Shown here piece after piece: positions 47,169-56,200 of a DNA stretch of 64,000 nucleotides; position 1 is the first letter of the stretch, and every line of letters starts with the position of its first letter. Both the position numbers and the translations under genes were made by a program. Below the pieces are notes generated by a model. The model saw only the letters and a list, made by a program, of their open reading frames with translations, had not been told where the DNA came from and ran no database searches. The DNA is from Escherichia coli. Its GTDB lineage: Bacteria > Pseudomonadota > Gammaproteobacteria > Enterobacterales > Enterobacteriaceae. The stretch is taken from the NCBI RefSeq assembly GCF_048403405.1, contig NZ_CP183129.1; one strand, given 5' to 3'.

Positions 47169-48490
47169 TGCCTAAACTTGTCACTTGGATGAACAACCAG
47201 CGGGTAGGCGAGTTAACGAAGTTAGCCAATGGCGCGCACACCTTTAAGTATGCACCGGAGTGGTTAGCCAACCGTTATGCCAGACCGTTATCACTTTCGC
47301 TGCCATTGCAGAGGGGGAATATCACCTCTGATGCTGTATTTAACTTCTTCGATAACCTGCTACCCGATAGCCCGATTGTACGTGACCGGATCGTTAAACG
47401 TTATCATGCTAAATCCAGACAACCGTTTGATTTATTGTCAGAAATAGGGCGAGATAGCGTTGGTGCCGTAACGTTATTACCCGAAAATGAAACCATAACG
47501 CGCCCGATAATGGCATGGGAACAGCTCACTGAAGCCAGGCTTGAAGAAGTATTAACGGCTTATAAAGCAGATATCCCTCTGGGCATGATTAGAGAAGAAA
47601 ATGACTTTCGCATCTCGGTTGCTGGCGCGCAGGAGAAGACAGCGCTGCTCAGAATAGGCAATGACTGGTGCATTCCGAAAGGAATAACGCCGACGACGCA
47701 CATCATTAAATTACCGATTGGCGAAATCAGGCAGCCCAATGCGACGCTCGATCTCAGCCAAAGCGTTGATAATGAGTATTACTGTCTGCTGCTGGCGAAA
47801 GAACTTGGGTTGAATGTGCCGGACGCAGAAATCATTAAAGCGGGAAATGTGCGCGCGTTAGCGGTCGAACGTTTTGACAGGCGTTGGAATGCTGAGCGAA
47901 CGGTTTTACTTCGCTTGCCACAGGAGGATATGTGTCAGACATTCGGTTTACCTTCATCGGTGAAATATGAATCAGATGGAGGCCCAGGCATCGCGCGGAT
48001 CATGGCTTTTTTGATGGGGTCCAGCGAGGCGCTGAAAGATCGCTATGATTTTATGAAGTTTCAGGTGTTCCAGTGGTTGATTGGCGCAACGGATGGCCAT
48101 GCAAAAAACTTCTCCGTATTTATTCAGGCTGGCGGCAGTTATCGACTCACGCCATTTTACGACATCATTTCAGCATTTCCGGTATTGGGTGGCGCAGGAA
48201 TACACATCAGCGATCTCAAACTAGCAATGGGGCTTAACGCATCCAAAGGCAAAAAAACGGCAATCGATAAAATTTATCCGCGACATTTTCTGGCGACAGC
48301 AAAGGTGCTGAAATTTCCGGAAGTGCAGATGCATGAAATCCTGAGTGACTTTGCCAGAATGATTCCGGCAGCACTGGATAACGTGAAGACTTCATTACCG
48401 ACAGATTTTCCGGAGAACGTGGTGACGGCAGTTGAAACCAATGTGTTGAGGTTGCACGGCCGGTTAAGCCGAGAATACGGTATTAAGTAA
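47168..48490 (+). CDS. hipA: HipA serine/threonine kinase toxin
   Basis: 440 aa from MPKLVTWMNNQRVGELTKLANGAHTFKYAPEWL...; the ORF track began 19 codons upstream. Confidence 0.95.
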   Translation: MPKLVTWMNNQRVGELTKLANGAHTFKYAPEWLANRYARPLSLSLPLQRGNITSDAVFNFFDNLLPDSPIVRDRIVKRYHAKSRQPFDLLSEIGRDSVGAVTLLPENETITRPIMAWEQLTEARLEEVLTAYKADIPLGMIREENDFRISVAGAQEKTALLRIGNDWCIPKGITPTTHIIKLPIGEIRQPNATLDLSQSVDNEYYCLLLAKELGLNVPDAEIIKAGNVRALAVERFDRRWNAERTVLLRLPQEDMCQTFGLPSSVKYESDGGPGIARIMAFLMGSSEALKDRYDFMKFQVFQWLIGATDGHAKNFSVFIQAGGSYRLTPFYDIISAFPVLGGAGIHISDLKLAMGLNASKGKKTAIDKIYPRHFLATAKVLKFPEVQMHEILSDFARMIPAALDNVKTSLPTDFPENVVTAVETNVLRLHGRLSREYGIK

Positions 48491-48888
48491 GATATGGGGT
48501 TTTGGTCGTTGTTAATGAGCAGGACAATCATGACCGCCAACGACTGGATTCTCCCTTGGTTTATGTTGGTGCGCATAATGTATATTATGTTAAATGTGGT
48601 GGGTTTGTTCTTAAGTTCATGTGTTCCGCTCTTTCAGTAGCTTAACTGATGAATCAGTCAGCAGCTCTTGCCGTGCAAGCTACGCGGCGGTTCGTACCAG
48701 ATTGGCCACCTCCATCTCCTGGTTCGCTTTCCCCTCCCCCCGGTAAACCTCACCCAACGTTAATTAATGATGTCAGTATGTGGGCGCTATCCTCGTATGT
48801 AAAATCCACTGACGATTACGCCCATCTGTGAAAAAAAACTCACAATGCCATTCGATGCATCTCCATACTGAACGAGGCGTTATCGTCT

Positions 48889-49436
48889 TTATCGCCCCGT
48901 AGTGGATATCAGAAAATCAATCAGGGCCTTCACTCTTTTCGTTTTACCCGCGTTTTTGGGGTAATAGAGATACACTGGCGGGTAGGTTTTCCAGTAGCTC
49001 TCCATCACCGGAATAAAACGCTCCCTGTCCGGCTGTAACTGCCAGACAGGCTCAAACTTTCTAACTGTATACCCGGATATTGCTGACAGAATTCTGCCAT
49101 CGCAGGCTTAAGAATTAACAGGTAGGCAAAACGCGAGAGCGTAATTCGCACCATCCCAGAGGGCTCCTGATGCTGGTCGCGAATGCTTTCAAGTGAGTTT
49201 TCCAGCGACTCCACCGCCGCAGCGGTCTGTTCCAGCAATAATTGACCGGTTTCCGTCAGCTCTATACGGCGGGTCGTACGCACAAAAAGCGGATGGCCGA
49301 TATACTCTTCCAGCAGCTTTAGTGCATTGCTGACGGAGGGAGGCGTAATTTCCAGTTTCCTTGCGGCTGCCGAAATATTGCCCTCCCGCGCAATGCTCTG
49401 GAAGATGCGAATCTGGTTATAAAGAGCGTTATTCAT
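48889..49436 (-). pseudogene. LysR-family regulator, frameshifted and internally shortened
   Basis: N-terminal 143-aa ORF (49005-49436) has the LysR HTH (ISAAARKLEITPPSVSNALKLLEE) and stops prematurely; a second frame (48889 to about 49075) encodes a LysR-like C-terminus (...KTKRVKALIDFLISTTGR*). Total is about 180 codons against about 300 expected. Confidence 0.55.
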
Positions 49437-49571
49437 AATGTTTTCCTAAGCAATTCTCGCCTGATTATTAAGTACAGTCTAAAAATGCTTAAGTCAATGA
49501 CCCTCTAATCTTCCTGAAATACGCCTCTTATACTTTAGTCTCTTTCTACTACGACCTGAGTTCAGGAGACT

Positions 49572-49883
49572 ATGATGCGAATTTTATGTCTGGATATCCC
49601 TGCCCCTGGAGCATCGCTGGAGAAATATGCTCCGCACCTCAACGCTGAAGCGCTGCACGCCTGGGGATTGTATAAATCAGGCTTCATCCGCGACATCTAC
49701 TTCCGTCAGGACAGACCTGGCGTCGCTATTTTTCTTGAATGTGACTCTGTCGATGAAGCGATGAACGTTATGGCCGAATTCCCGTTGGCAAAAGCAGGCT
49801 TACTAAGCTTCGAGTGTATACCGCTTGGCTCCTTTATTAACTGGGAAAATCTCTTCGCCGATGAATTTAAAAATAAAGAGTGA
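49572..49883 (+). CDS. Small dimeric alpha+beta-barrel protein, muconolactone isomerase-like
   Basis: 103-aa ORF; the pattern R(P)GV-x-FLECDSVDEAMNVMAEFPL resembles the MLI family core (...VFDV-SxEAxH-x-LxxLPL...); AGGAG Shine-Dalgarno upstream. Confidence 0.55.
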   Translation: MMRILCLDIPAPGASLEKYAPHLNAEALHAWGLYKSGFIRDIYFRQDRPGVAIFLECDSVDEAMNVMAEFPLAKAGLLSFECIPLGSFINWENLFADEFKNKE

Positions 49884-49891
49884 GGACCGAT

Positions 49892-50581
49892 ATGAAACCT
49901 GCATATAAACCAGTGCTATGTGTCGTTTCCAGCCATCCGATTAAAGGCGCATCCGGTGTACCAACCGGTTTTTTCCTGGCCGAGCTGACTCATCCGCTGA
50001 AAGTACTGGAAGATGCCGGAATAAAAACAACAATAGCCAGTATTCGCGGGGGGCAGCCACCGGTGGATGGATTTGACCTCAGCGACCCTGTTAACGCCTG
50101 GTACTGGAACGAAACCGATTTTCAGCAGCGCCTGGCAACAACACCTGCGTTATCCGAGCTGAAAGGTGCCGATTACAGCGCAGTTTTCTTTGCAGGTGGT
50201 CATGGGACCATGTGGGATTTCCGTGATAATCAGGATGCCCAGCGTATTATCCGCGAAGTGTATGAAAGTGATGGGATTGTCTCAGCCGTCTGCCACGGGC
50301 CTGCGGCATTGGTTGACGCAAAACTCAGTAGCGGCGAATACCTGATAAAAGGGAAAAATGTGGCGGCCTTTACCAACAAGGAAGAGGAAGAAGTTCACAC
50401 AACAGATGTGGTTCCCTTCCTGCTTGAAACCGCACTTCGCGAGCATGGTGCGCTTTATCATGAAGCTCCAAACTGGTCTGAAAACGTGGTTACCGACGAT
50501 CGCCTTATCACGGGGCAGAATCCCGCTTCAGCACATGGGGTTGGTGTGGCGCTGTTAAATGCACTCCGCCGGACAGCTTAA
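49892..50581 (+). CDS. DJ-1/PfpI-family (class I glutamine amidotransferase-like) protein
   Basis: About 229 aa from MKPAYKPVLCVVSS...; conserved nucleophile-elbow Cys context (AVCHGPAAL); GAGGA Shine-Dalgarno before the ATG at 49892; 8 nt after the previous stop. Confidence 0.8.
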   Translation: MKPAYKPVLCVVSSHPIKGASGVPTGFFLAELTHPLKVLEDAGIKTTIASIRGGQPPVDGFDLSDPVNAWYWNETDFQQRLATTPALSELKGADYSAVFFAGGHGTMWDFRDNQDAQRIIREVYESDGIVSAVCHGPAALVDAKLSSGEYLIKGKNVAAFTNKEEEEVHTTDVVPFLLETALREHGALYHEAPNWSENVVTDDRLITGQNPASAHGVGVALLNALRRTA

Positions 50582-50654
50582 TTAATTCATCGTTACTCAC
50601 CTTACTTGGCCGGTTTAAGTCAGCCACGATCCGGCCTTTTTTCAGGAGCTGAAT

Positions 50655-51602
50655 ATGAAAACACTACCTCCAGTCGCACTAGGTACATGGTCCTGGGGCA
50701 CAGGCTTTGCCGGCGGCGACACCGTCTTTGGTAATCATCTTTCTGATACTCAGATGGCAGAAGTGTTCACTGCGGCCATGAGTAAGGGCCTCAATCTCTG
50801 GGATACCGCAGCAGTATATGGTATGGGGAGTTCCGAGACTGCGCTGGGAGCATTAGTCCGTCAGTTTCCCCGCGAGAACATAATTTTATCCACCAAATTC
50901 ACGCCGCAGATTGCGGACAAGCAGTCTGCGCAGCCTGTCAGCGATATGCTTGAGGCCAGCCTTGGGCGCCTGGGCGTGGACGCGATTGATATCTACTGGA
51001 TCCATAATCCCCTCGACGTCGAAAAATGGACACCAGGACTGATCCCACTTTTACAAAGCGGTAAGGTAAAACGCGTAGGTGTTTCCAACCACAATCTGGC
51101 ACAAATCAGACGCGCCAATGAAATCCTTAACGCTTCCGGTTATTCCCTCAGTGCAGTACAAAATCACTACAGCCTGCTCTATCGCGCTTCTGAAGAGGCC
51201 GGGATCCTTGATTATTGCCGACAAAATAACATCACGTTCTTTGCTTACATGGTCCTGGAGCAAGGCGCGCTCAGTGGTCGTTATGATTCAAATCATCCCA
51301 TGCCTGCCGGGAGTGGCCGGGCCGAAAGTTATAACGCAGTACTGCCGCAGATAGAAAGACTAACCGCCGCCATGAAAAAAATGGGAGCCGAAAGGAATGC
51401 CAGCGTGGCACAGATAGCCATCGCATGGGCTATTGCGAAAGGTACCCTTCCCCTCGTTGGTGCGACTAAAGTCCATCACGTTCTGGACGCCGCCTGCGCT
51501 TCAGACATCCAGTTACGCGATGAGGAAATCATCCTGCTGGAACAACTCGCCGCAGAGACCAGAGTGGATACACGAGGCGCCTGGGAAAAACCGATGGTGT
51601 AA
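50655..51602 (+). CDS. Aldo/keto reductase
   Basis: 315-aa ORF with AKR fold features (WDTAAVYG, IDIYWIHNP, GVSNH). Confidence 0.85.
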   Translation: MKTLPPVALGTWSWGTGFAGGDTVFGNHLSDTQMAEVFTAAMSKGLNLWDTAAVYGMGSSETALGALVRQFPRENIILSTKFTPQIADKQSAQPVSDMLEASLGRLGVDAIDIYWIHNPLDVEKWTPGLIPLLQSGKVKRVGVSNHNLAQIRRANEILNASGYSLSAVQNHYSLLYRASEEAGILDYCRQNNITFFAYMVLEQGALSGRYDSNHPMPAGSGRAESYNAVLPQIERLTAAMKKMGAERNASVAQIAIAWAIAKGTLPLVGATKVHHVLDAACASDIQLRDEEIILLEQLAAETRVDTRGAWEKPMV

Positions 51603-51704
51603 AGCCCGTCCGGAACAGACTGTCATGAATGACACACACGAACGGGCTGTTCCGGGTGATTCTAATCTGTATCACTTTTACTGCTTTGTATGAATGGTGA
51701 GAAT

Positions 51705-52381
51705 ATGAAAATCATTTGCCTCGAAGAACATTATCTCGACAGCGAGTTAGGGCGAGCGTGTATGCCTGTTGCGCTTGAGCAGGCACCTTTCCTTGGCGAC
51801 TGGGGGAAAACCGTCGCTGATGGTCATAATCCTGACCGACTCCCTGCTTTCCCGCTTTAATAAACTGAATGTGCCACTCTATCTTCATCCCGGGTTACCG
51901 CTTAAAAGCGTACAGCAGGCCTACTTCACGGGCTTCAGCGCAGAGGTCAACGCCAGGCTTTCTATGTTTGCCTGGGGCTGGCATCACGAAGCGGGGATCC
52001 ATTTGTTGCGGCTGATGTTATCGGGCGCATTTGATAAATATCCCAACCTGCAGGTAATCAGTGGCCACTGGGGGGAGATGTTACCCTTCTGGCTCCAGCG
52101 TCTTGATGACAGCCTACCACTGGCTGCAACGGGTCTGTCACGCACGCTAACGAGAACCTTCCAGGAACACGTTTACGTTACCCCGTCATATGCTAACACT
52201 GCCGCACTTCCAGTTTATCTACGCGTTAATGGGTGCTGAAAGGATCCTGTTCTCCGTCGATTATCCCTATCAGACCCTGGACGGTGTAAAAACCTTTATA
52301 GACAGTCTGCCCGTCAACAAGGCTGAAAAAGAGGCCATCGCGTTTCGCAATGCAGAACGTTTACTGGGCATCACGGTTTAG
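51705..52381 (+). pseudogene. Amidohydrolase-2 (ACMSD/LigW-like metal-dependent hydrolase/decarboxylase) with at least two frameshifts
   Basis: Three consecutive fragments in different frames: MKIICLEEHY... (51705 to about 51860), ...ISGHWGEMLPFWLQRLDD... (track ORF 51769-52239) and ...FSVDYPYQTLDGVKTFIDSLPVNKAEKEAIAFRNAERLLGI (52190-52381). Confidence 0.5.
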
Positions 52382-52531
52382 TTCACCGTTTCATGATGAT
52401 TGAGCACATTGTGATCAGCCGACAATTATTAGTTTTTGCCTAAAAGTGAATGAGCCTTTACTGCTCTAAAAAAATAATGTTGTCACTCTATACTGGATTT
52501 AATATTCACCAAAGATGTTTAACTGATTGAA

Positions 52532-53104
52532 ATGAAAAATATCCTTGTTATTTCAGGTCATCCTGAGCTTACCCATTCCGTCGCCAATGCCACTATTCTT
52601 GATGAAGTGGAGACCGCCCTTCCCGATGTTGAGATTCGTCGTCTGGACAGGCTCTATCCGGATGGCAAATTCAACATCGCGGCGGAGCAGGAAAGCCTGC
52701 TCAGGGCCGATGTGATTGTCTGGCAGTTCCCTTTTTCCTGGTATGGGCTGCCAGGATTAATGAAAAAATGGCTGGACGAGGTCTTTGTTCACGGCTTCGC
52801 GCATGGCTCAACGGCGAAACTGGGCGGTAAAAAGCTGATCCTCTCCTTTACAACGGGAGCGCCAGAGGAGCTCTATACCGTCGACAGTTTCTTTGGCCAT
52901 ACCATTGAAGAGTATCTAATTCCGTTCGAGACCACAGCAAAACTGTGCAATCTTGAGCTGCTGGAGCCGGTTTATACCTGCGGTATCAGCTATGCCGATC
53001 GGGATGCCGACAAACTCGCGCAGCAAAAAACGCTTGCCTGGGAACACGCTTCAAGGCTTGTCGATCTGCTCAATTCCGTCGTGAATAATCCAGAGGGAGA
53101 ATAA
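52532..53104 (+). CDS. Flavodoxin-like-fold NAD(P)H:quinone oxidoreductase (KefF/KefG/YwrO-like)
   Basis: 190 aa; N-terminus MKNILVISGHPELTHSVANATIL... and the FPFSWYGLPGLMKKWLDEVF block resemble KefG-type quinone reductases. Confidence 0.75.
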   Translation: MKNILVISGHPELTHSVANATILDEVETALPDVEIRRLDRLYPDGKFNIAAEQESLLRADVIVWQFPFSWYGLPGLMKKWLDEVFVHGFAHGSTAKLGGKKLILSFTTGAPEELYTVDSFFGHTIEEYLIPFETTAKLCNLELLEPVYTCGISYADRDADKLAQQKTLAWEHASRLVDLLNSVVNNPEGE

Positions 53105-53106
53105 CA

Positions 53107-54126
53107 ATGCAGTATACCCGGCTCGGTAAAAGTAACTTACTTGTTTCCCGCATCTGCATGGGATGCATGGGGTTTGGCGATCCGTCGACGGGTCAGCATA
53201 GCTGGACGCTGGACGAAACAGCAAGCCGCGACATCATTCGCTATGGCCTTGAAAAGGGCATCAACTTTTACGATACCGCTATAGCCTACCAGAATGGCTC
53301 CAGTGAGCGATACGTTGGCCGGGCATTACGGGAGATGGCGAAACGCGATGATATCGTCCTGGCCACCAAGTTTCTGCCGCGAACCCCCGCACAAATTGCC
53401 GGAGGGATCAGCGGAAAAGAGGCAATCGCTCAATCCCTTGACCAGAGCCTGAAGAATCTGGGGATGGACTATATCGACCTCTACATCTACCACATCTGGG
53501 ATTACAACACGCCCATTATCGACGTGCTTGAAGCGTTATATGCCGCTGTTACTGCTGGCAAAGTACGAGCTGTTGGTATTTCAAACTGCTATGCCTGGCA
53601 GCTGGCGAAGGCGAACGCCCTTGCTGAACGCGAAGGGCTGACGCCCTTTGTTTCCGTACAGAGCCACTACAATCTAATTATGCGCGAAGATGAACGGGAG
53701 CTCTTCGGCCTGTGCACTGAGGATAATATCGCAATGACCCCCTATAGCGCGCTGGCCAGCGGCCGCCTCTCTCGTAAAGAAGGCTATACACGGCGAGCCA
53801 CAGAGGATGACTATGCGCGTGGAAAATATGACAGCACGGCTGAACAGGATCGCAGCATTATTGAGCGTGTAGCCGAACTGGCCGAACGCCATCTGGTGTC
53901 AATGACGGAAATATCTCTCGCTTGGCTGCTGACAAAAGTCACATCACCTGTCGTAGGGGCTACAAAAAAAGCTCATGTCGATGGCGCGGTAAACGCAGTA
54001 AATCTTCAACTAAGTCCGGAGGAAATTCAGTTTCTGGAAGAAACCTACCAGCCGCATGTTCTGACGGGGATCATGGCGCAAAATACGCCGCAAACGAAAG
54101 ATGTTAAGCAGGTCTGGATGCGATAG
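53107..54126 (+). CDS. Aldo/keto reductase (Tas/YdjG-like)
   Basis: 339 aa; AKR motifs (FYDTAIAYQNG, IDLYIYHIWD, GISNC); starts 3 nt after the preceding gene, so probably co-transcribed. Confidence 0.85.
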   Translation: MQYTRLGKSNLLVSRICMGCMGFGDPSTGQHSWTLDETASRDIIRYGLEKGINFYDTAIAYQNGSSERYVGRALREMAKRDDIVLATKFLPRTPAQIAGGISGKEAIAQSLDQSLKNLGMDYIDLYIYHIWDYNTPIIDVLEALYAAVTAGKVRAVGISNCYAWQLAKANALAEREGLTPFVSVQSHYNLIMREDERELFGLCTEDNIAMTPYSALASGRLSRKEGYTRRATEDDYARGKYDSTAEQDRSIIERVAELAERHLVSMTEISLAWLLTKVTSPVVGATKKAHVDGAVNAVNLQLSPEEIQFLEETYQPHVLTGIMAQNTPQTKDVKQVWMR

Positions 54127-54241
54127 CCCTTATTCACTTTTCCTCCTCTCGTCTTTGAGAGCGCCAGTAGCGGTCGGTTACGTTCTTACCAGCACCAGTT
54201 GATCGAACGTCTTAAACAGTAACGTCAGTAAAAAGATCATC

Positions 54242-54967
54242 GTGAAAAAGACTTTTATGCTTTTAATTTGCATGCTAATAAGCAGCCCTGTCTTTGCAAC
54301 AAAACCGGACGCGCCGAATAAGCCGGAGATGAATATCTTCGAGCTCGGCATCAGACCCGATCGGGACAACGACTTTGCAGACGTGGCCAGACAGACGATT
54401 TCCGCTTCGGTTGATCATGAAGCAGGTACACTGGCGATGTATGCCCTGCAACGCAGCGACAATTCAGGTCAGGCATTCATGTTCGAACTCTATGAAAATG
54501 AGCGTGCTTATCGCAAACATCTCAATGCCGCCCCATACAAAGCATTCGCTGCTCGTGCAGCTGACATTATTGACAGGAAGAAGAAAATTACCCTGGAGCC
54601 ACAGTTTCTGGGCGACAAACACATCATACCGAATGAACGAACTATCAATAATCTGGTGATCGTCGAAGTAAAGCCTGAATTTCAGAGCGAATTTAGAAAC
54701 ATCGTCCTTCCTGAAATGGTCGAGTCGCTCAAAGTAGAGAAAGGCGTGTTAGCCATGTATGCCGGTACAGATTCAGAGACTCCAAAACGCTGGTATTTCT
54801 ATGAGATTTACGCCAGTGAGGAGGATTATCAACTGCACCGACAAACGCTGCACTTCCTGGAATACCTCAGGCAAACGGCGCATATGAGCGCCAGGAAGGA
54901 CGCAATCCCGGTAAAACCGGTATTTCTTCGTAACAAAGGCGGAATCAAACAGGAGCCGCAACGTTGA
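54242..54967 (+). CDS. Secreted protein with tandem ABM (antibiotic-biosynthesis-monooxygenase-like) domains
   Basis: 241 aa; N-terminal signal peptide (MLLICMLISSPVFA|TKPD); two repeats of an ABM-like ferredoxin fold (LAMYALQRSDN...FMFELYENERAYRKH and LAMYAGTDSETP...YFYEIYASEEDYQLH). Confidence 0.65.
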   Translation: MKKTFMLLICMLISSPVFATKPDAPNKPEMNIFELGIRPDRDNDFADVARQTISASVDHEAGTLAMYALQRSDNSGQAFMFELYENERAYRKHLNAAPYKAFAARAADIIDRKKKITLEPQFLGDKHIIPNERTINNLVIVEVKPEFQSEFRNIVLPEMVESLKVEKGVLAMYAGTDSETPKRWYFYEIYASEEDYQLHRQTLHFLEYLRQTAHMSARKDAIPVKPVFLRNKGGIKQEPQR

Positions 54968-54982
54968 CCAGTAAGGATTAAC

Positions 54983-55786
54983 ATGAAAAGCGTACTTGCA
55001 GCAGCGGCTATGTCGCTTGTTATTTCTGATTTTGCCAATGCTGAGGAAACAAGAGGTAAAGCTATGATGAAAATAGAACCGTCAGCGATTTCGGAAGCTG
55101 ATATTCGTTCCGTCTCACCGGCTCTCGCGCGCTTTGGTCGCGAAGCTATTACTGAAGATCTGTGGACACGCGACGCCCTCTCACCGAGGGATCGTAGTGT
55201 GGTGACCGTCGCCATGCTGATTGCCCGCAACCAGCCTGCCGAGCTTAAGCACTATATTGACGTCGCTCTCGATAGCGGCGTGACGCCAGCGGAATTATCA
55301 GAAATCATTACCCATCTGGCGTTCTACTCAGGTTGGCCAAATGCAATGTCAGCCGTCAGCGTGACCAAAGCAGTATTTGAAACTCGTGGCGTCACGCCAG
55401 ATGCGCTTCCTGACACTTCTCCGGACCTGCTTCCTCTCAATCAGGAAGCAGAAAAGCAGCGTTCAGAGACAGTGGAAAAAAATGTTGGCCGAATATCTCC
55501 AGGCTTGGTTAAATTTACTGCTGACCCACTGTTCCTGGATCTCTGGCAAAGACCCGCGCTAACCCCCCGTGATAGAAGCCTGATTACGGTCAGCGCGTTA
55601 ATCGCATCTGGACAGAGCGCGCAGATTGGCTATCACCTTAACAGAGCGATGGATAATGGACTTTCTGCTGAGGAAGCTGGGGAGATCGTTACCCAAGCCG
55701 CGTTTTACGCTGGCTGGCCAAACGCATTTACCGCTGCTCCGGTTGTGGGAGAGGTGCTAAACAATCGATCATCGAGTAAAAGGTAA
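54983..55786 (+). CDS. Secreted protein with tandem carboxymuconolactone-decarboxylase (CMD/AhpD-like) domains
   Basis: 267 aa; signal peptide (MKSVLAAAAMSLVISDFANA); two CMD-like repeats (LSPRDRSVVTVAMLIARNQ...HLAFYSGWPNA and LTPRDRSLITVSALIASGQ...QAAFYAGWPNA). Confidence 0.7.
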   Translation: MKSVLAAAAMSLVISDFANAEETRGKAMMKIEPSAISEADIRSVSPALARFGREAITEDLWTRDALSPRDRSVVTVAMLIARNQPAELKHYIDVALDSGVTPAELSEIITHLAFYSGWPNAMSAVSVTKAVFETRGVTPDALPDTSPDLLPLNQEAEKQRSETVEKNVGRISPGLVKFTADPLFLDLWQRPALTPRDRSLITVSALIASGQSAQIGYHLNRAMDNGLSAEEAGEIVTQAAFYAGWPNAFTAAPVVGEVLNNRSSSKR

Positions 55787-56200
55787 CATTACTGAACACT
55801 AAAACCTGACGCACATCACAACATTAGAACGAACAGTTCATGAACCAATAAGCGTAACATCGAGTGATTTATGGACAGCGTTTAACACAGTTATGAACCA
55901 AAACTGAGTTCATAACTGTGAGTTTGAATCGCCATTTGATTAATATCCATTTAAAACAGTTTGTTATGCTGTTTCTGGTGCTGAAGTCAATTATGTATAT
56001 CCCTCAAACCCAGAATAGTTAAATGGAATTTGAGTGATGCGAAGCGATTTTCCAGTCGTCGTTATTACTTCAGGGTTCCAGAACATAAAGCCTCTCCTCT
56101 TTCATGATTGGCCTGTGCATACCGGATATAGGCTGGCTGGTATGCAGGTTTGCCGTTTGCCGCATCTTCCCTGCGTTGAAGAGTCAGGCTGGCAAACCGC

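What the first reader, a model, noticed from the sequence alone, without database searches (positions are those of the whole stretch)
52532..54126. KefG-like quinone reductase and aldo/keto reductase as an overlapping two-gene unit
The two ORFs are separated by only 2 nt (stop at 53104, ATG at 53107). A flavodoxin-fold NAD(P)H:quinone reductase directly coupled to an AKR would reduce a quinone or carbonyl electrophile in two steps; no flanking K+-efflux partner (KefB/KefC) is present, so a regulatory KefF/KefG role is unlikely here.
Basis: inference. Interest (0 to 1): 0.35.

Follow-up and report, generated by a model that had tools for sequence, protein, structure and literature searches.

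The report
Quinone reductase–aldo/keto reductase operon junction
Two real, intact reductase genes sit 2 bases apart in an accessory E. coli island, but they are an ordinary junction inside a larger LysR-controlled stress or detoxification operon rather than a special two-gene machine.

Summary
ORFs 52532-53104 (190 aa, Flavodoxin_2) and 53107-54126 (339 aa, aldo/keto reductase with an intact D-Y-K-H tetrad) are 2 nt apart, not overlapping. Both are under purifying selection, and no kefB/kefC lies in the window.

The "two-gene unit" reading is only partly supported.
- **Island:** the pair lies in an accessory island between hipBA and a fimbrial cluster, present in 480 of 5426 complete E. coli genomes.
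- **Conserved partner:** across 40 related species loci, the reductase's steady partner is a divergent LysR regulator of the CrgA/YafC type (38/40).
- **Cis-element:** a T-N11-A box sits about 107 nt upstream of the reductase ATG (window 52425-52448), with a second copy at 49464-49487.
- **Downstream gene:** the commonest downstream gene is a YciI-family gene (23/40). The aldo/keto reductase is directly adjacent in only 7/40.
- **The 2-nt gap:** it is recent. A 1-nt deletion extended the reductase by 5 codons into an ancestral 18-nt spacer that carries the ribosome-binding site.

The aldo/keto reductase nevertheless recurs in clusters with Flavodoxin_2 reductases, including mdaB, in 5 of 6 contexts examined, so shared regulation is likely. 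In this strain the LysR gene carries a 349-bp deletion. I rate this an uncharacterised new member of a known kind, of low interest.

The parts
48889..49436 (-). LysR-type regulator gene (CrgA/YafC cluster), a pseudogene in this window: a 349-bp internal deletion at about 49057 leaves a 143-aa ORF (49005-49436) that keeps the HTH and the first ~60 residues beyond it, then shifts frame
   Evidence: the window lacks L001 10307-10655. HTH_1 is present plus only the first 38 positions of LysR_substrate; the best NCBIfam hit for the intact orthologue is YafC (162.8 bits, cut-off 470); the deleted segment is present in 481 genomes, and all 40 best genome matches are intact.
49464..49487 (+). LysR box 1 (T-N11-A dyad, ATTATTAAGTACAGTCTAAAAATG) in the LysR<>p103 divergent intergenic region
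   Evidence: 3 matches in the window against 0.19 expected; the equivalent box occurs at the LysR<>p103 intergenic region in L006-L010 and L013.
49572..49883 (+). p103, a small protein with no Pfam match and a predicted YciI/muconolactone-isomerase-like alpha+beta barrel; first gene of the upstream unit
   Evidence: no Pfam hit. AF2 pLDDT 88.8; Foldseek top hits are TftG, HI0828 and ClcF.
49880..50581 (+). DJ-1/PfpI family protein (glyoxalase III / deglycase-like)
   Evidence: PF01965, 59.9 bits; below all equivalog cut-offs.
50655..51602 (+). AKR1, a second aldo/keto reductase, 35% identical to AKR2
   Evidence: PF00248, 194.5 bits; 34.8% identity to AKR2.
51705..52381 (+). Amidohydrolase_2 pseudogene (about 354-bp deletion at 51839 plus a frameshift); intact at 344-352 aa in Rahnella and Pantoea
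   Evidence: (PF04909, 102 bits for the intact L006 orthologue).
52425..52448 (+). LysR box 2 (ATTATTAGTTTTTGCCTAAAAGTG; T-N11-A), 107 nt upstream of the FLD ATG; predicted regulator binding site of an internal promoter
   Evidence: this region is homologous to the LysR<>FLD divergent intergenic region of species where LysR is adjacent; a box at -103 to -111 in 30 of 46 loci; 46 hits in 1.35 Mb in all.
52489..52494 (+). Conserved -10-like hexamer TATACT of the predicted FLD promoter (no good -35, as expected for an activator-dependent promoter)
   Evidence: T58 A59 T60 A61 T63 are invariant across 19 sequences from Enterobacterales to Pasteurellaceae; the generic sigma-70 scan did not call it.
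52532..53104 (+). FLD: KefF-like Flavodoxin_2 NAD(P)H-dependent (predicted FMN) quinone oxidoreductase, 190 aa; the last 5 codons come from read-through after a 1-nt deletion near 53079/53080
   Evidence: KefF fusion 3eyw, 113 bits; 45% identity; invariant SGHP..S..N, WQFPFSWY, SFTxGA loops.
53093..53099 (+). Shine-Dalgarno GAGGGAG for AKR2, lying inside the 3' end of FLD, 7 nt before the ATG
   Evidence: a purine-rich GGAG-like core (GGGAG, TGGAG, AGGAG or GGGGA) is present at every junction compared, where it lies in a 12-23-nt spacer.
53107..54126 (+). AKR2: aldo/keto reductase, 339 aa, tetrad D56 Y61 K88 H129, substrate unknown
   Evidence: (best PDB hits 7utf, DepB and IolS at 140-152 bits).
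54127..54241 (+). AKR2-ABM spacer with a deletion scar at about 54140. Relatives carry a secreted DUF1330 gene and a second flavodoxin-like reductase gene here (about 952 bp). No terminator was predicted.
54242..54967 (+). Tandem-ABM ('quinol monooxygenase'-type) protein with an N-terminal signal peptide
   Evidence: PF03992, two stretches; conserved signal-peptide-like N-termini ending VFA/AFA.
54983..55786 (+). Tandem CMD (AhpD/carboxymuconolactone-decarboxylase family) protein with an N-terminal signal peptide; last gene of the predicted unit
   Evidence: PF02627, two stretches..

Best explanation
FLD and AKR2 are the first two genes of a LysR-dependent transcription unit, FLD-AKR2-ABM-CMD, within a modular accessory island for quinone and carbonyl (electrophile) stress.

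**Proposed mechanism.**
- A CrgA/YafC-type LysR activator, encoded divergently at the island's left end, binds T-N11-A boxes at two promoters. One lies in front of p103 (49464-49487) and one 107 nt in front of FLD (52425-52448). It would activate both in response to an unidentified quinone-like or electrophilic inducer.
- FLD, an FMN-type paralogue of KefF, would carry out NAD(P)H-driven two-electron reduction of quinones.
- AKR2 would be translated from the same mRNA through a Shine-Dalgarno embedded in the FLD 3' end. It would reduce carbonyl electrophiles (aldehydes, alpha-dicarbonyls or o-quinones) with NAD(P)H. The two enzymes most likely act in parallel as members of one regulon, not as obligate consecutive steps.

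**History of the junction.** The 2-nt gap is a recent by-product of a single-base deletion.

**This strain.** The LysR gene carries a 349-bp deletion, so the unit is probably uninducible, running at basal level or silent.

**Shown:** gene integrity and selection, family membership, synteny statistics, the conserved box and its fixed position, and the origin of the junction.

**Inferred:** LysR binding, the inducer, co-transcription, substrates and cofactor.
For: - **Families:** (PF02525, PF00248; closest solved relatives are KefF, 'general stress protein 14', an NAD(P)H-FMN oxidoreductase, and NQO1/NQO2/MdaB).
- **KefF as an enzyme:** KefF is an FMN quinone reductase acting on benzoquinone and menadione with NADH or NADPH (PMC10224563, read).
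- **Synteny:** one search gives LysR 38/40, YCII next to FLD 23/40, AKR2 directly next 7/40, AKR2 in the operon 10/40, ABM 20/40 and CMD 13/40.
- **Minimal forms:** Klebsiella has LysR<>p103-FLD-AKR2-CMD. E. ludwigii, Cronobacter and Pantoea cypripedii show variants.
- **Promoter and box:**. The box is at -103 to -111 in 30 of 46 loci, whether LysR is adjacent or 3-4 kb away. There were 3 hits in the window against 0.19 expected.
- **Regulator type:** (best hit YafC; CrgA structure 3hhg, 101 bits). CrgA is 59% identical to YafC and activates the divergent quinone reductase gene mdaB through T-N11-A sites (PMC2724274).
- **AKR2 with Flavodoxin_2 genes:**, 5 of 6 contexts. These include Pectobacterium, where AKR2 lies next to a YafC-like LysR gene and mdaB.
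- **Junction history:**
- **Selection:**
- **No structural RNA or terminator within the unit:**
Against: - No expression, binding or enzymatic data exist for any gene of this island. No paper was found under the four protein accessions.
- The generic sigma-70 scan did not call the proposed promoter, so the -35 is poor or absent.
- The presence of a YciI/muconolactone-isomerase-like protein, an Amidohydrolase_2, a CMD protein and an ABM protein could equally indicate catabolism of an aromatic compound rather than detoxification.
- Co-transcription of ABM and CMD with FLD-AKR2 rests only on same-strand spacing (115 and 15 nt) and the lack of a predicted terminator.
- FLD's flavin and substrate are inferred from 45% identity to KefF.
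Confidence: 0.62

Rival explanations
1. One reading: FLD and AKR2 form a dedicated, coupled two-step pathway. FLD reduces a quinone, and AKR2 then reduces a carbonyl of the same molecule or its product.
For: - The junction is tight, with a conserved Shine-Dalgarno.
- AKR2 orthologues recur in clusters that contain a Flavodoxin_2 reductase, including two different paralogues, KefF-like and MdaB.
- Both genes are under purifying selection.
Against: - AKR2 is absent from 30 of 40 FLD loci and directly adjacent in only 7.
- AKR2 can be separated from FLD by a YCII gene (L014, L026, L061, L085) or by SDR genes (Shewanella). It can also stand alone (Morganella).
- The 2-nt spacing is a recent accident.
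- After two-electron reduction a quinone becomes a hydroquinone and has no carbonyl left for an AKR to reduce (chemical reasoning, not tested).
Confidence: 0.15
2. The island is a catabolic or transformation pathway for a plant-derived or host-derived hydroxylated aromatic compound, such as a hydroxyquinone, hydroxyhydroquinone or lactone. FLD would act as a hydroxybenzoquinone-reductase-like step and the AKRs as side-chain carbonyl reductases.
For: - p103 has a TftG/YciI/muconolactone-isomerase-like fold.
- A YCII gene follows FLD in 23 of 40 loci.
- TftG is a YciI-family dehydrochlorinase whose hydroxybenzoquinone product is reduced by a quinone reductase (PMC3975901; PMC7641849).
- Amidohydrolase_2, CMD and ABM families are present.
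- The island occurs in many plant-associated genera: Pantoea, Erwinia, Pectobacterium, Rahnella, Serratia.
Against: - No ring-cleavage dioxygenase, transporter or CoA-dependent downstream steps are present in any locus examined.
- Gene content is highly variable between species, which is unusual for a fixed pathway.
- ABM, CMD and DUF1330 carry signal peptides.
- The amidohydrolase is dead in E. coli while its neighbours stay intact.
Confidence: 0.15
3. FLD is a third KefF/KefG-type ancillary subunit that modulates KefC or KefB encoded elsewhere on the chromosome.
For: FLD is 45% identical to KefF over 164 residues. KefF is its best NCBIfam hit.
Against: - Scores are below the KefF and KefG equivalog cut-offs (149<210 and 117<240).
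- FLD is never seen beside a K+ efflux gene, in the window or in 75 related loci, although there the neighbours were screened only by comparison with the island's own proteins.
- kefF and kefG characteristically lie 5' of, and overlap, their transporter genes (PMC10224563).
- FLD's conserved partners are a LysR gene and redox enzymes.
Confidence: 0.03

Closest known systems
KefF (YabF) and KefG (YheR) of E. coli, the quinone-oxidoreductase ancillary subunits of the KefC and KefB K+ efflux systems
   Same: Same Flavodoxin_2 fold family and a similar size of about 20 kDa. FLD is 45% identical to KefF, with conserved flavin-binding loops. Like kefF, FLD is the 5' gene of a tightly packed gene pair (PMC10224563).
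   Different: FLD is below both equivalog cut-offs. The downstream gene is an AKR or a YciI-family gene, never kefC or kefB. It is linked to a LysR regulator and is an accessory gene present in about 9% of E. coli genomes.
CrgA-mdaB of Neisseria meningitidis: a LysR-type regulator that activates a divergent Flavodoxin_2 quinone reductase gene
   Same: The regulator belongs to the CrgA/YafC cluster and is encoded divergently. T-N11-A boxes lie upstream of a Flavodoxin_2 NAD(P)H quinone reductase gene. In Pectobacterium an AKR2 orthologue lies beside a YafC-like LysR gene and mdaB.
   Different: The reductase here is KefF-like, not MdaB (only 61 bits to MdaB over residues 2-93). The regulator is not an orthologue of CrgA or YafC (162.8 bits against a cut-off of 470). 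The unit carries extra genes: AKR, ABM and CMD. In the window the regulator is deleted and lies 3 kb away.
mdaB-ygiN of E. coli: a quinone reductase plus an ABM quinol monooxygenase, proposed to form a quinone redox cycle (my own knowledge; not checked in a paper here)
   Same: A Flavodoxin_2 reductase and an ABM-family protein are encoded in one cluster.
   Different: The ABM protein here is a tandem-domain protein with a signal peptide, so it is probably periplasmic. An AKR lies between the two genes.
yqhC-yqhD-dkgA of E. coli: a regulator plus an aldehyde reductase and an AKR for electrophilic aldehyde stress (my own knowledge)
   Same: Two NAD(P)H-dependent reductases with different substrate ranges are co-expressed under one dedicated activator, and one of them is an AKR.
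   Different: The regulator family differs (AraC-type against LysR-type). The partner enzyme differs (Fe-ADH against Flavodoxin_2). AKR2 is not DkgA (48 bits against a cut-off of 425).
TftG plus hydroxybenzoquinone reductase, from 2,4,5-trichlorophenol degradation in Burkholderia
   Same: A YciI-family enzyme acts on a substituted hydroquinone and is paired functionally with a quinone reductase. FLD relatives are followed by a YCII gene in 23 of 40 loci, and p103 has a TftG-like fold.
   Different: The window itself has no YCII gene next to FLD. Sequence similarity of p103 to TftG is marginal (E = 0.048). No dioxygenase or monooxygenase genes of that pathway are present.

Membership tests
Flavodoxin_2 / NQO1-type NAD(P)H:quinone oxidoreductases (PF02525) | Sequence match above the Pfam gathering threshold over the whole domain | tested here: met
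   139.6 bits against 27; residues 2-166 match profile positions 1-191 of 198.
Flavodoxin_2 / NQO1-type NAD(P)H:quinone oxidoreductases (PF02525) | Conserved flavin-binding loops aligned with those of KefF | tested here: met
   S8 G9 H10 P11 S16 N19, W64 Q65 F66 P67 F68 S69 W70 Y71, and S105 F106 T107 G109 A110 are invariant in 20 orthologues. They align with the AHP..HSHAN, WQHPMQWY and VTTGG segments of KefF. Identifying these segments as flavin-binding loops is from my own knowledge.
Flavodoxin_2 / NQO1-type NAD(P)H:quinone oxidoreductases (PF02525) | Bound FMN or FAD and NAD(P)H-dependent two-electron quinone reduction | not testable with these tools
   Needs purified protein.
KefF / KefG ancillary subunits of Kef K+ efflux systems | Score at or above the NCBIfam equivalog cut-off | tested here: not met
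   KefF NF002044: 149.4 against 210. KefG NF003430: 116.8 against 240.
KefF / KefG ancillary subunits of Kef K+ efflux systems | Gene lies immediately 5' of kefC or kefB in the same operon, typically overlapping it (PMC10224563) | tested here: not met
   The downstream gene is an AKR. No kef gene is annotated in the region of strain 4621 that matches the window. None was seen next to FLD in 75 related loci, where neighbours were screened only against the island's own proteins.
KefF / KefG ancillary subunits of Kef K+ efflux systems | Binds the KTN domain and is required for full Kef activity | not testable with these tools
   Needs interaction and K+ efflux assays.
Aldo/keto reductase superfamily (PF00248) | Sequence match above the gathering threshold | tested here: met
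   233.8 bits against 24; residues 16-313.
Aldo/keto reductase superfamily (PF00248) | Catalytic tetrad Asp-Tyr-Lys-His | tested here: met
   D56, Y61, K88 and H129 lie in the motifs FYDTA, AYQNG, LATKF and IYHIW.
Named E. coli AKR equivalogs (YdjG, PRK10625, YghZ-type, DkgA, DkgB) | Score at or above the equivalog or subfamily cut-off | tested here: not met
   122 against 550, 110 against 415, 104 against 448, 48 against 425, and 71 against 327. The substrate therefore cannot be transferred from these enzymes.
LysR-activated quinone reductase unit (CrgA-mdaB type) | A LysR-type regulator of the CrgA/YafC cluster linked to the reductase gene | tested here: met
   A divergent LysR orthologue is present in 38 of 40 loci. 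Its best family hit is YafC, and it scores 101 bits to CrgA 3hhg. It is not an orthologue (162.8 against 470). In the window the gene carries a 349-bp deletion.
LysR-activated quinone reductase unit (CrgA-mdaB type) | T-N11-A binding motif upstream of the reductase gene | tested here: met
   Window 52425-52448. The box is at -103 to -111 in 30 of 46 loci. The window has 3 hits against 0.19 expected.
LysR-activated quinone reductase unit (CrgA-mdaB type) | Regulator binding and inducer-dependent activation | not testable with these tools
   Needs EMSA or footprinting and reporter assays.
Conserved obligate two-gene unit (FLD + AKR2) | Adjacency maintained across orthologues in both directions | tested here: not met
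   From FLD: directly adjacent in 7 of 40 loci and in the operon in 10 of 40. From AKR2: directly adjacent in 2 of 6 contexts, in the same cluster in 5 of 6, and solitary in 1 of 6.

The most novel reading that the evidence does not exclude
The recurring gene set forms a previously undescribed two-compartment system, under a CrgA/YafC-type LysR regulator, for dealing with host-derived or plant-derived (hydroxy)quinones.
- The set comprises a KefF-like reductase, YciI/TftG-like small proteins, AKRs, DJ-1, and signal-peptide-bearing tandem ABM, tandem CMD and DUF1330 proteins.
- Periplasmic ABM, CMD and DUF1330 enzymes would act on the compound outside the cytoplasm.
- In the cytoplasm, a YciI-like enzyme, FLD and AKR2 would transform and reduce whatever enters.
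- In that reading, FLD-AKR2 (or FLD-YciI-AKR2) would be a real metabolic module.
Probability: 0.15. Interest if true: 0.5.

Novelty: new member of a known kind. Interest (0 to 1): 0.2.

Why it matters
- **For annotation.** A KefF/KefG-like hit without an adjacent kef gene should be read as a stand-alone quinone reductase. A very short intergenic gap alone does not define a functional pair. Here comparative genomics shows the gap is a one-base accident.
- **For biology.** The analysis defines an uncharacterised LysR regulon present in about 9% of complete E. coli genomes and in many Enterobacterales, Pasteurellaceae and Neisseriaceae. It has a sharply conserved operator at a fixed distance from the reductase gene, which gives a directly testable handle (operator, regulator, candidate inducers) on accessory quinone and electrophile defence.
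- **For experiments.** The window strain carries a natural regulator deletion, which provides a ready-made control against strains such as 4621.
- **Limits.** None of this is surprising to a specialist.

Tried and rejected
- **Generic promoter and terminator scan of 48400-56900.** It found no more sites than in shuffled sequence and did not call the FLD promoter. I rejected it as a guide, because the conserved box and -10 element were found by cross-species alignment instead.
- **Rfam scan of 48000-57000 at E<=1.** Nothing was found, so there is no riboswitch or sRNA upstream of FLD.
- **Literature search by the four RefSeq protein accessions, and for YciI + quinone reductase + LysR.** No papers were found.
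- **The primary KefF enzymology paper (PMC3165647).** It is not held, so KefF properties are cited from the review PMC10224563.
- **PDB profile search with the YCII alignment.** No significant hit.
- **hhalign of p103 against the YCII alignment.** Probability 9.8%, which is inconclusive. The link of p103 to the YciI/MIase fold rests on the AF2 model and Foldseek only.
- **FLD as MdaB or YcaK-type (PRK09739).** Rejected, because only partial, low-scoring matches were found.
- **The box-like match at window 137-160 (2 mismatches).** Treated as chance; it has no related gene context.
- **The 2-nt gap as evidence of special translational coupling.** Rejected, because the ancestral junction has a 12-23-nt spacer with the same Shine-Dalgarno.
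Full report
**1. The observation**

The window carries two same-strand ORFs exactly where stated. FLD runs 52532-53104 (190 aa, TAA at 53102-53104). AKR2 runs 53107-54126 (339 aa). Two bases (CA) separate them, so they do not overlap.

Pfam assigns FLD to Flavodoxin_2 (PF02525, 139.6 bits, cut-off 27) and AKR2 to Aldo_ket_red (PF00248, 233.8 bits, cut-off 24). AKR2 keeps the catalytic tetrad D56/Y61/K88/H129.

Pairwise dN/dS against orthologues in seven other loci is 0.10-0.24 for FLD and 0.05-0.10 for AKR2. Both are therefore functional genes, not chance ORFs.

FLD's closest curated models are KefF (149.4 bits, cut-off 210) and KefG (116.8 bits, cut-off 240). Its closest solved relative is E. 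coli KefF, at 45% identity over 164 residues.

**2. Where the window comes from**

The region is 100% identical to the chromosome of E. coli strain 4621. It is present in 480 of 5426 complete E. coli genomes.

In that genome the pair lies in an accessory island between hipBA and a truncated AraC-type gene plus a fim-like cluster, ydeP and ydeO. The annotated region of strain 4621 that matches the window, all but its first ~100 bases, contains no kefB or kefC.

The island reads, in order:
- a LysR regulator on the minus strand;
- a 103-aa protein with no Pfam match (p103);
- a DJ-1/PfpI protein;
- AKR1;
- an Amidohydrolase_2 pseudogene;
- FLD;
- AKR2;
- a tandem-ABM protein;
- a tandem-CMD protein.

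**3. Is FLD-AKR2 a conserved unit?**

I fetched 75 loci encoding FLD relatives from species-representative genomes and labelled their neighbours. Forty loci had FLD at 60% identity or more and enough flanking sequence. Among these:

| Feature | Loci (of 40) |
|---|---|
| Divergent LysR orthologue | 38 |
| YCII (PF03795) gene immediately downstream of FLD | 23 |
| ABM gene | 20 |
| CMD gene | 13 |
| AKR2 orthologue in the operon | 10 |
| AKR2 orthologue directly adjacent to FLD | 7 |

In three loci the order is FLD-YCII-AKR2. Klebsiella pneumoniae has a minimal form, LysR<>p103-FLD-AKR2-CMD. Enterobacter mori plasmids carry an expanded form.

I then looked from the AKR2 side, at six orthologues of 78-88% identity:
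- two are directly downstream of FLD (E. ludwigii, Cronobacter);
- one is downstream of FLD-YCII (Pantoea cypripedii);
- one shares an operon with a different KefF-like Flavodoxin_2 gene, DUF1330 and a CMD-ABM fusion (Shewanella);
- one lies beside a YafC-like LysR gene and mdaB (Pectobacterium; MdaB confirmed at 344 bits);
- one is solitary (Morganella).

The adjacency is therefore facultative. Membership of AKR2 in clusters that contain a Flavodoxin_2 reductase is recurrent.

**4. Origin of the 2-nt gap**

Junction alignment shows the common state. FLD is 184-187 aa, followed by a 12-23-nt spacer, for example TAA-TCCAGAGGGAGAATAACG-ATG, which carries the Shine-Dalgarno.

In the E. coli, E. 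mori and E. sichuanensis lineage one T was lost near 53079/53080. The old stop is read through, five codons are added (…NNPEGE), and the new stop lies 2 nt before the AKR2 ATG. The Shine-Dalgarno (GAGGGAG, 53093-53099) now lies inside FLD. The gap is a recent accident at an ordinary operon junction.

**5. A conserved operator and promoter in front of FLD**

The 150 nt upstream of FLD follows the amidohydrolase pseudogene. It is homologous to the LysR<>FLD divergent intergenic region of species in which LysR is directly adjacent to FLD.

It contains ATTATTAGTTTTTGCCTAAAAGTG (52425-52448), a TTAG-N7-CTAA dyad that fits the LysR T-N11-A consensus. It also contains a CTCTAAAAAA tract and an invariant TATACT (52489-52494).

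Allowing up to 3 mismatches, the box occurs 3 times in the window against 0.19 expected. The second good copy is in the LysR<>p103 intergenic region (49464-49487).

Across 46 loci the box sits at -103 to -111 from the FLD ATG in 30. Only 46 hits occur in 1.35 Mb, and most of the others lie at LysR<>p103 regions.

FLD therefore heads its own LysR-type promoter. With no predicted terminator or RNA element downstream, the likely unit is FLD-AKR2-ABM-CMD.

**6. The regulator**

The intact orthologue best matches YafC (162.8 bits, below the cut-off of 470) and the CrgA structure (101 bits).

CrgA is 59% identical to YafC. It activates the divergent quinone reductase gene mdaB through T-N11-A sites, and is induced by an electrophile (PMC2724274). 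This is the closest known regulatory paradigm.

**7. State of the island in this strain**

Relative to strain 4621, Rahnella and E. mori, the window shows three deletions:
- a 349-bp deletion inside LysR at about 49057, which leaves a 143-aa ORF that keeps the HTH and shifts frame about 60 residues after it;
- an approximately 354-bp deletion plus a frameshift in the amidohydrolase, a gene that is also fragmented in strain 4621;
- an approximately 952-bp deletion at 54140, which removed a secreted DUF1330 gene and a second flavodoxin-like gene.

The LysR segment is present in 481 genomes, and all 40 best genome matches are intact. The regulator loss therefore appears strain-specific. FLD-AKR2 is probably not inducible here.

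**8. Mechanism and rivals**

*Best-supported model (0.62).* This is a LysR-activated quinone and carbonyl stress unit. FLD is an FMN-type NAD(P)H:quinone reductase, by analogy with KefF, which reduces benzoquinone and menadione (PMC10224563). AKR2 is a co-expressed carbonyl reductase acting in parallel.

So does the chemistry, since a hydroquinone has no carbonyl left for an AKR to reduce.

*Aromatic transformation pathway (0.15).* Three points favour it:
- YciI-family genes are present, and p103 has a TftG-like fold (pLDDT 88.8; Foldseek top hits TftG, HI0828 and ClcF).
- TftG's product is a quinone that is reduced by a reductase (PMC3975901).
- Amidohydrolase_2, CMD and ABM families are present.

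Against it, no ring-cleavage or transport genes are present, and gene content is very fluid.

*KefF/G-like regulatory role (0.03).* It fails the defining context and score tests.

**9. Verdict**

The sequence observation is correct and the family assignments are right. The inference that this is not a Kef ancillary subunit is also right.

The "two-gene unit" is better described as the head of a LysR-box-driven unit inside a modular accessory redox island. It is an uncharacterised new member of a known kind (an LTTR-controlled quinone reductase operon) and is of low general interest.

The conserved operator, the FLD-YciI association in relatives and the secreted ABM, CMD and DUF1330 proteins are the parts most worth an experiment.

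Noticed in passing
window 48889-49436 (-), deletion junction at about 49057: The island's LysR regulator gene has a 349-bp out-of-frame internal deletion, with about 4 bp of microhomology at the junction, relative to strain 4621. The deleted segment is present in 481 complete E. coli genomes, and all 40 best matches are intact, so the loss appears specific to this strain.
   Followed up: yes
window 51705-52381 (+), junction at about 51839: The Amidohydrolase_2 (PF04909) gene is a pseudogene, with an approximately 354-bp deletion plus a frameshift. It is intact (344-352 aa) in Rahnella and Pantoea. It is also fragmented in strain 4621.
   Followed up: partly
window 54127-54241, scar at about 54140: About 952 bp present in E. 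mori and Rahnella are missing between AKR2 and ABM. That stretch encodes a signal-peptide DUF1330 protein and a second, distantly related flavodoxin-like reductase of about 200 aa.
   Followed up: partly
window 49572-49883 (+): The 103-aa first gene of the island has no Pfam or NCBIfam match. RefSeq calls it 'hypothetical protein' in E. coli 4621 but 'superoxide dismutase' in the Klebsiella and E. mori records. The AF2 model (pLDDT 88.8) has a YciI/TftG/muconolactone-isomerase-like alpha+beta barrel. I found no basis for the SOD name.
   Followed up: partly
window 54242-54967 and 54983-55786 (+): The tandem-ABM and tandem-CMD proteins carry canonical N-terminal signal peptides (…SSPVFA|T, …DFANA|E) that are conserved in most orthologues. 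These are probably periplasmic members of families that are usually cytoplasmic.
   Followed up: partly
L014 8563-8886, L017 8591-8887, L039 8608-8907, L085 4679-4975 and others: In most relatives (23 of 40) a 98-99-aa YCII-family gene with an invariant His and conserved Asp residues directly follows FLD. Where AKR2 is also present, the YCII gene lies between FLD and AKR2. The window lineage has lost it or never had it.
   Followed up: partly
L081 5001-7709 (Pectobacterium): An AKR2 orthologue (80% identity) lies between parE and a YafC-like LysR gene plus mdaB. From memory, that is the position ygiN occupies in E. coli K-12. This is an independent association of this AKR with a different quinone reductase.
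   Followed up: partly
L004 (a 3.6-kb contig in a 'Collinsella sp.' MAG) and L047 (a 383-bp, 0.69x-coverage contig in a Corallococcus exercitus assembly): Both contigs are 97-100% identical at protein level to the E. coli island genes. They are most likely misbinned or contaminant Enterobacteriaceae DNA in those assemblies.
   Followed up: no
window 56189-56455 (+): A C-terminal fragment of an AraC-family regulator (annotated as lacking its N-terminus) lies at the right edge of the island, just before the fimA-like cluster.
   Followed up: no
window 137-160 (+): A third match to the LysR-box pattern (TTTATTAGAGCATGACTAAAAATG, 2 mismatches) lies near the ydfJ pseudogene. It has no related gene context and is probably chance.
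   Followed up: no
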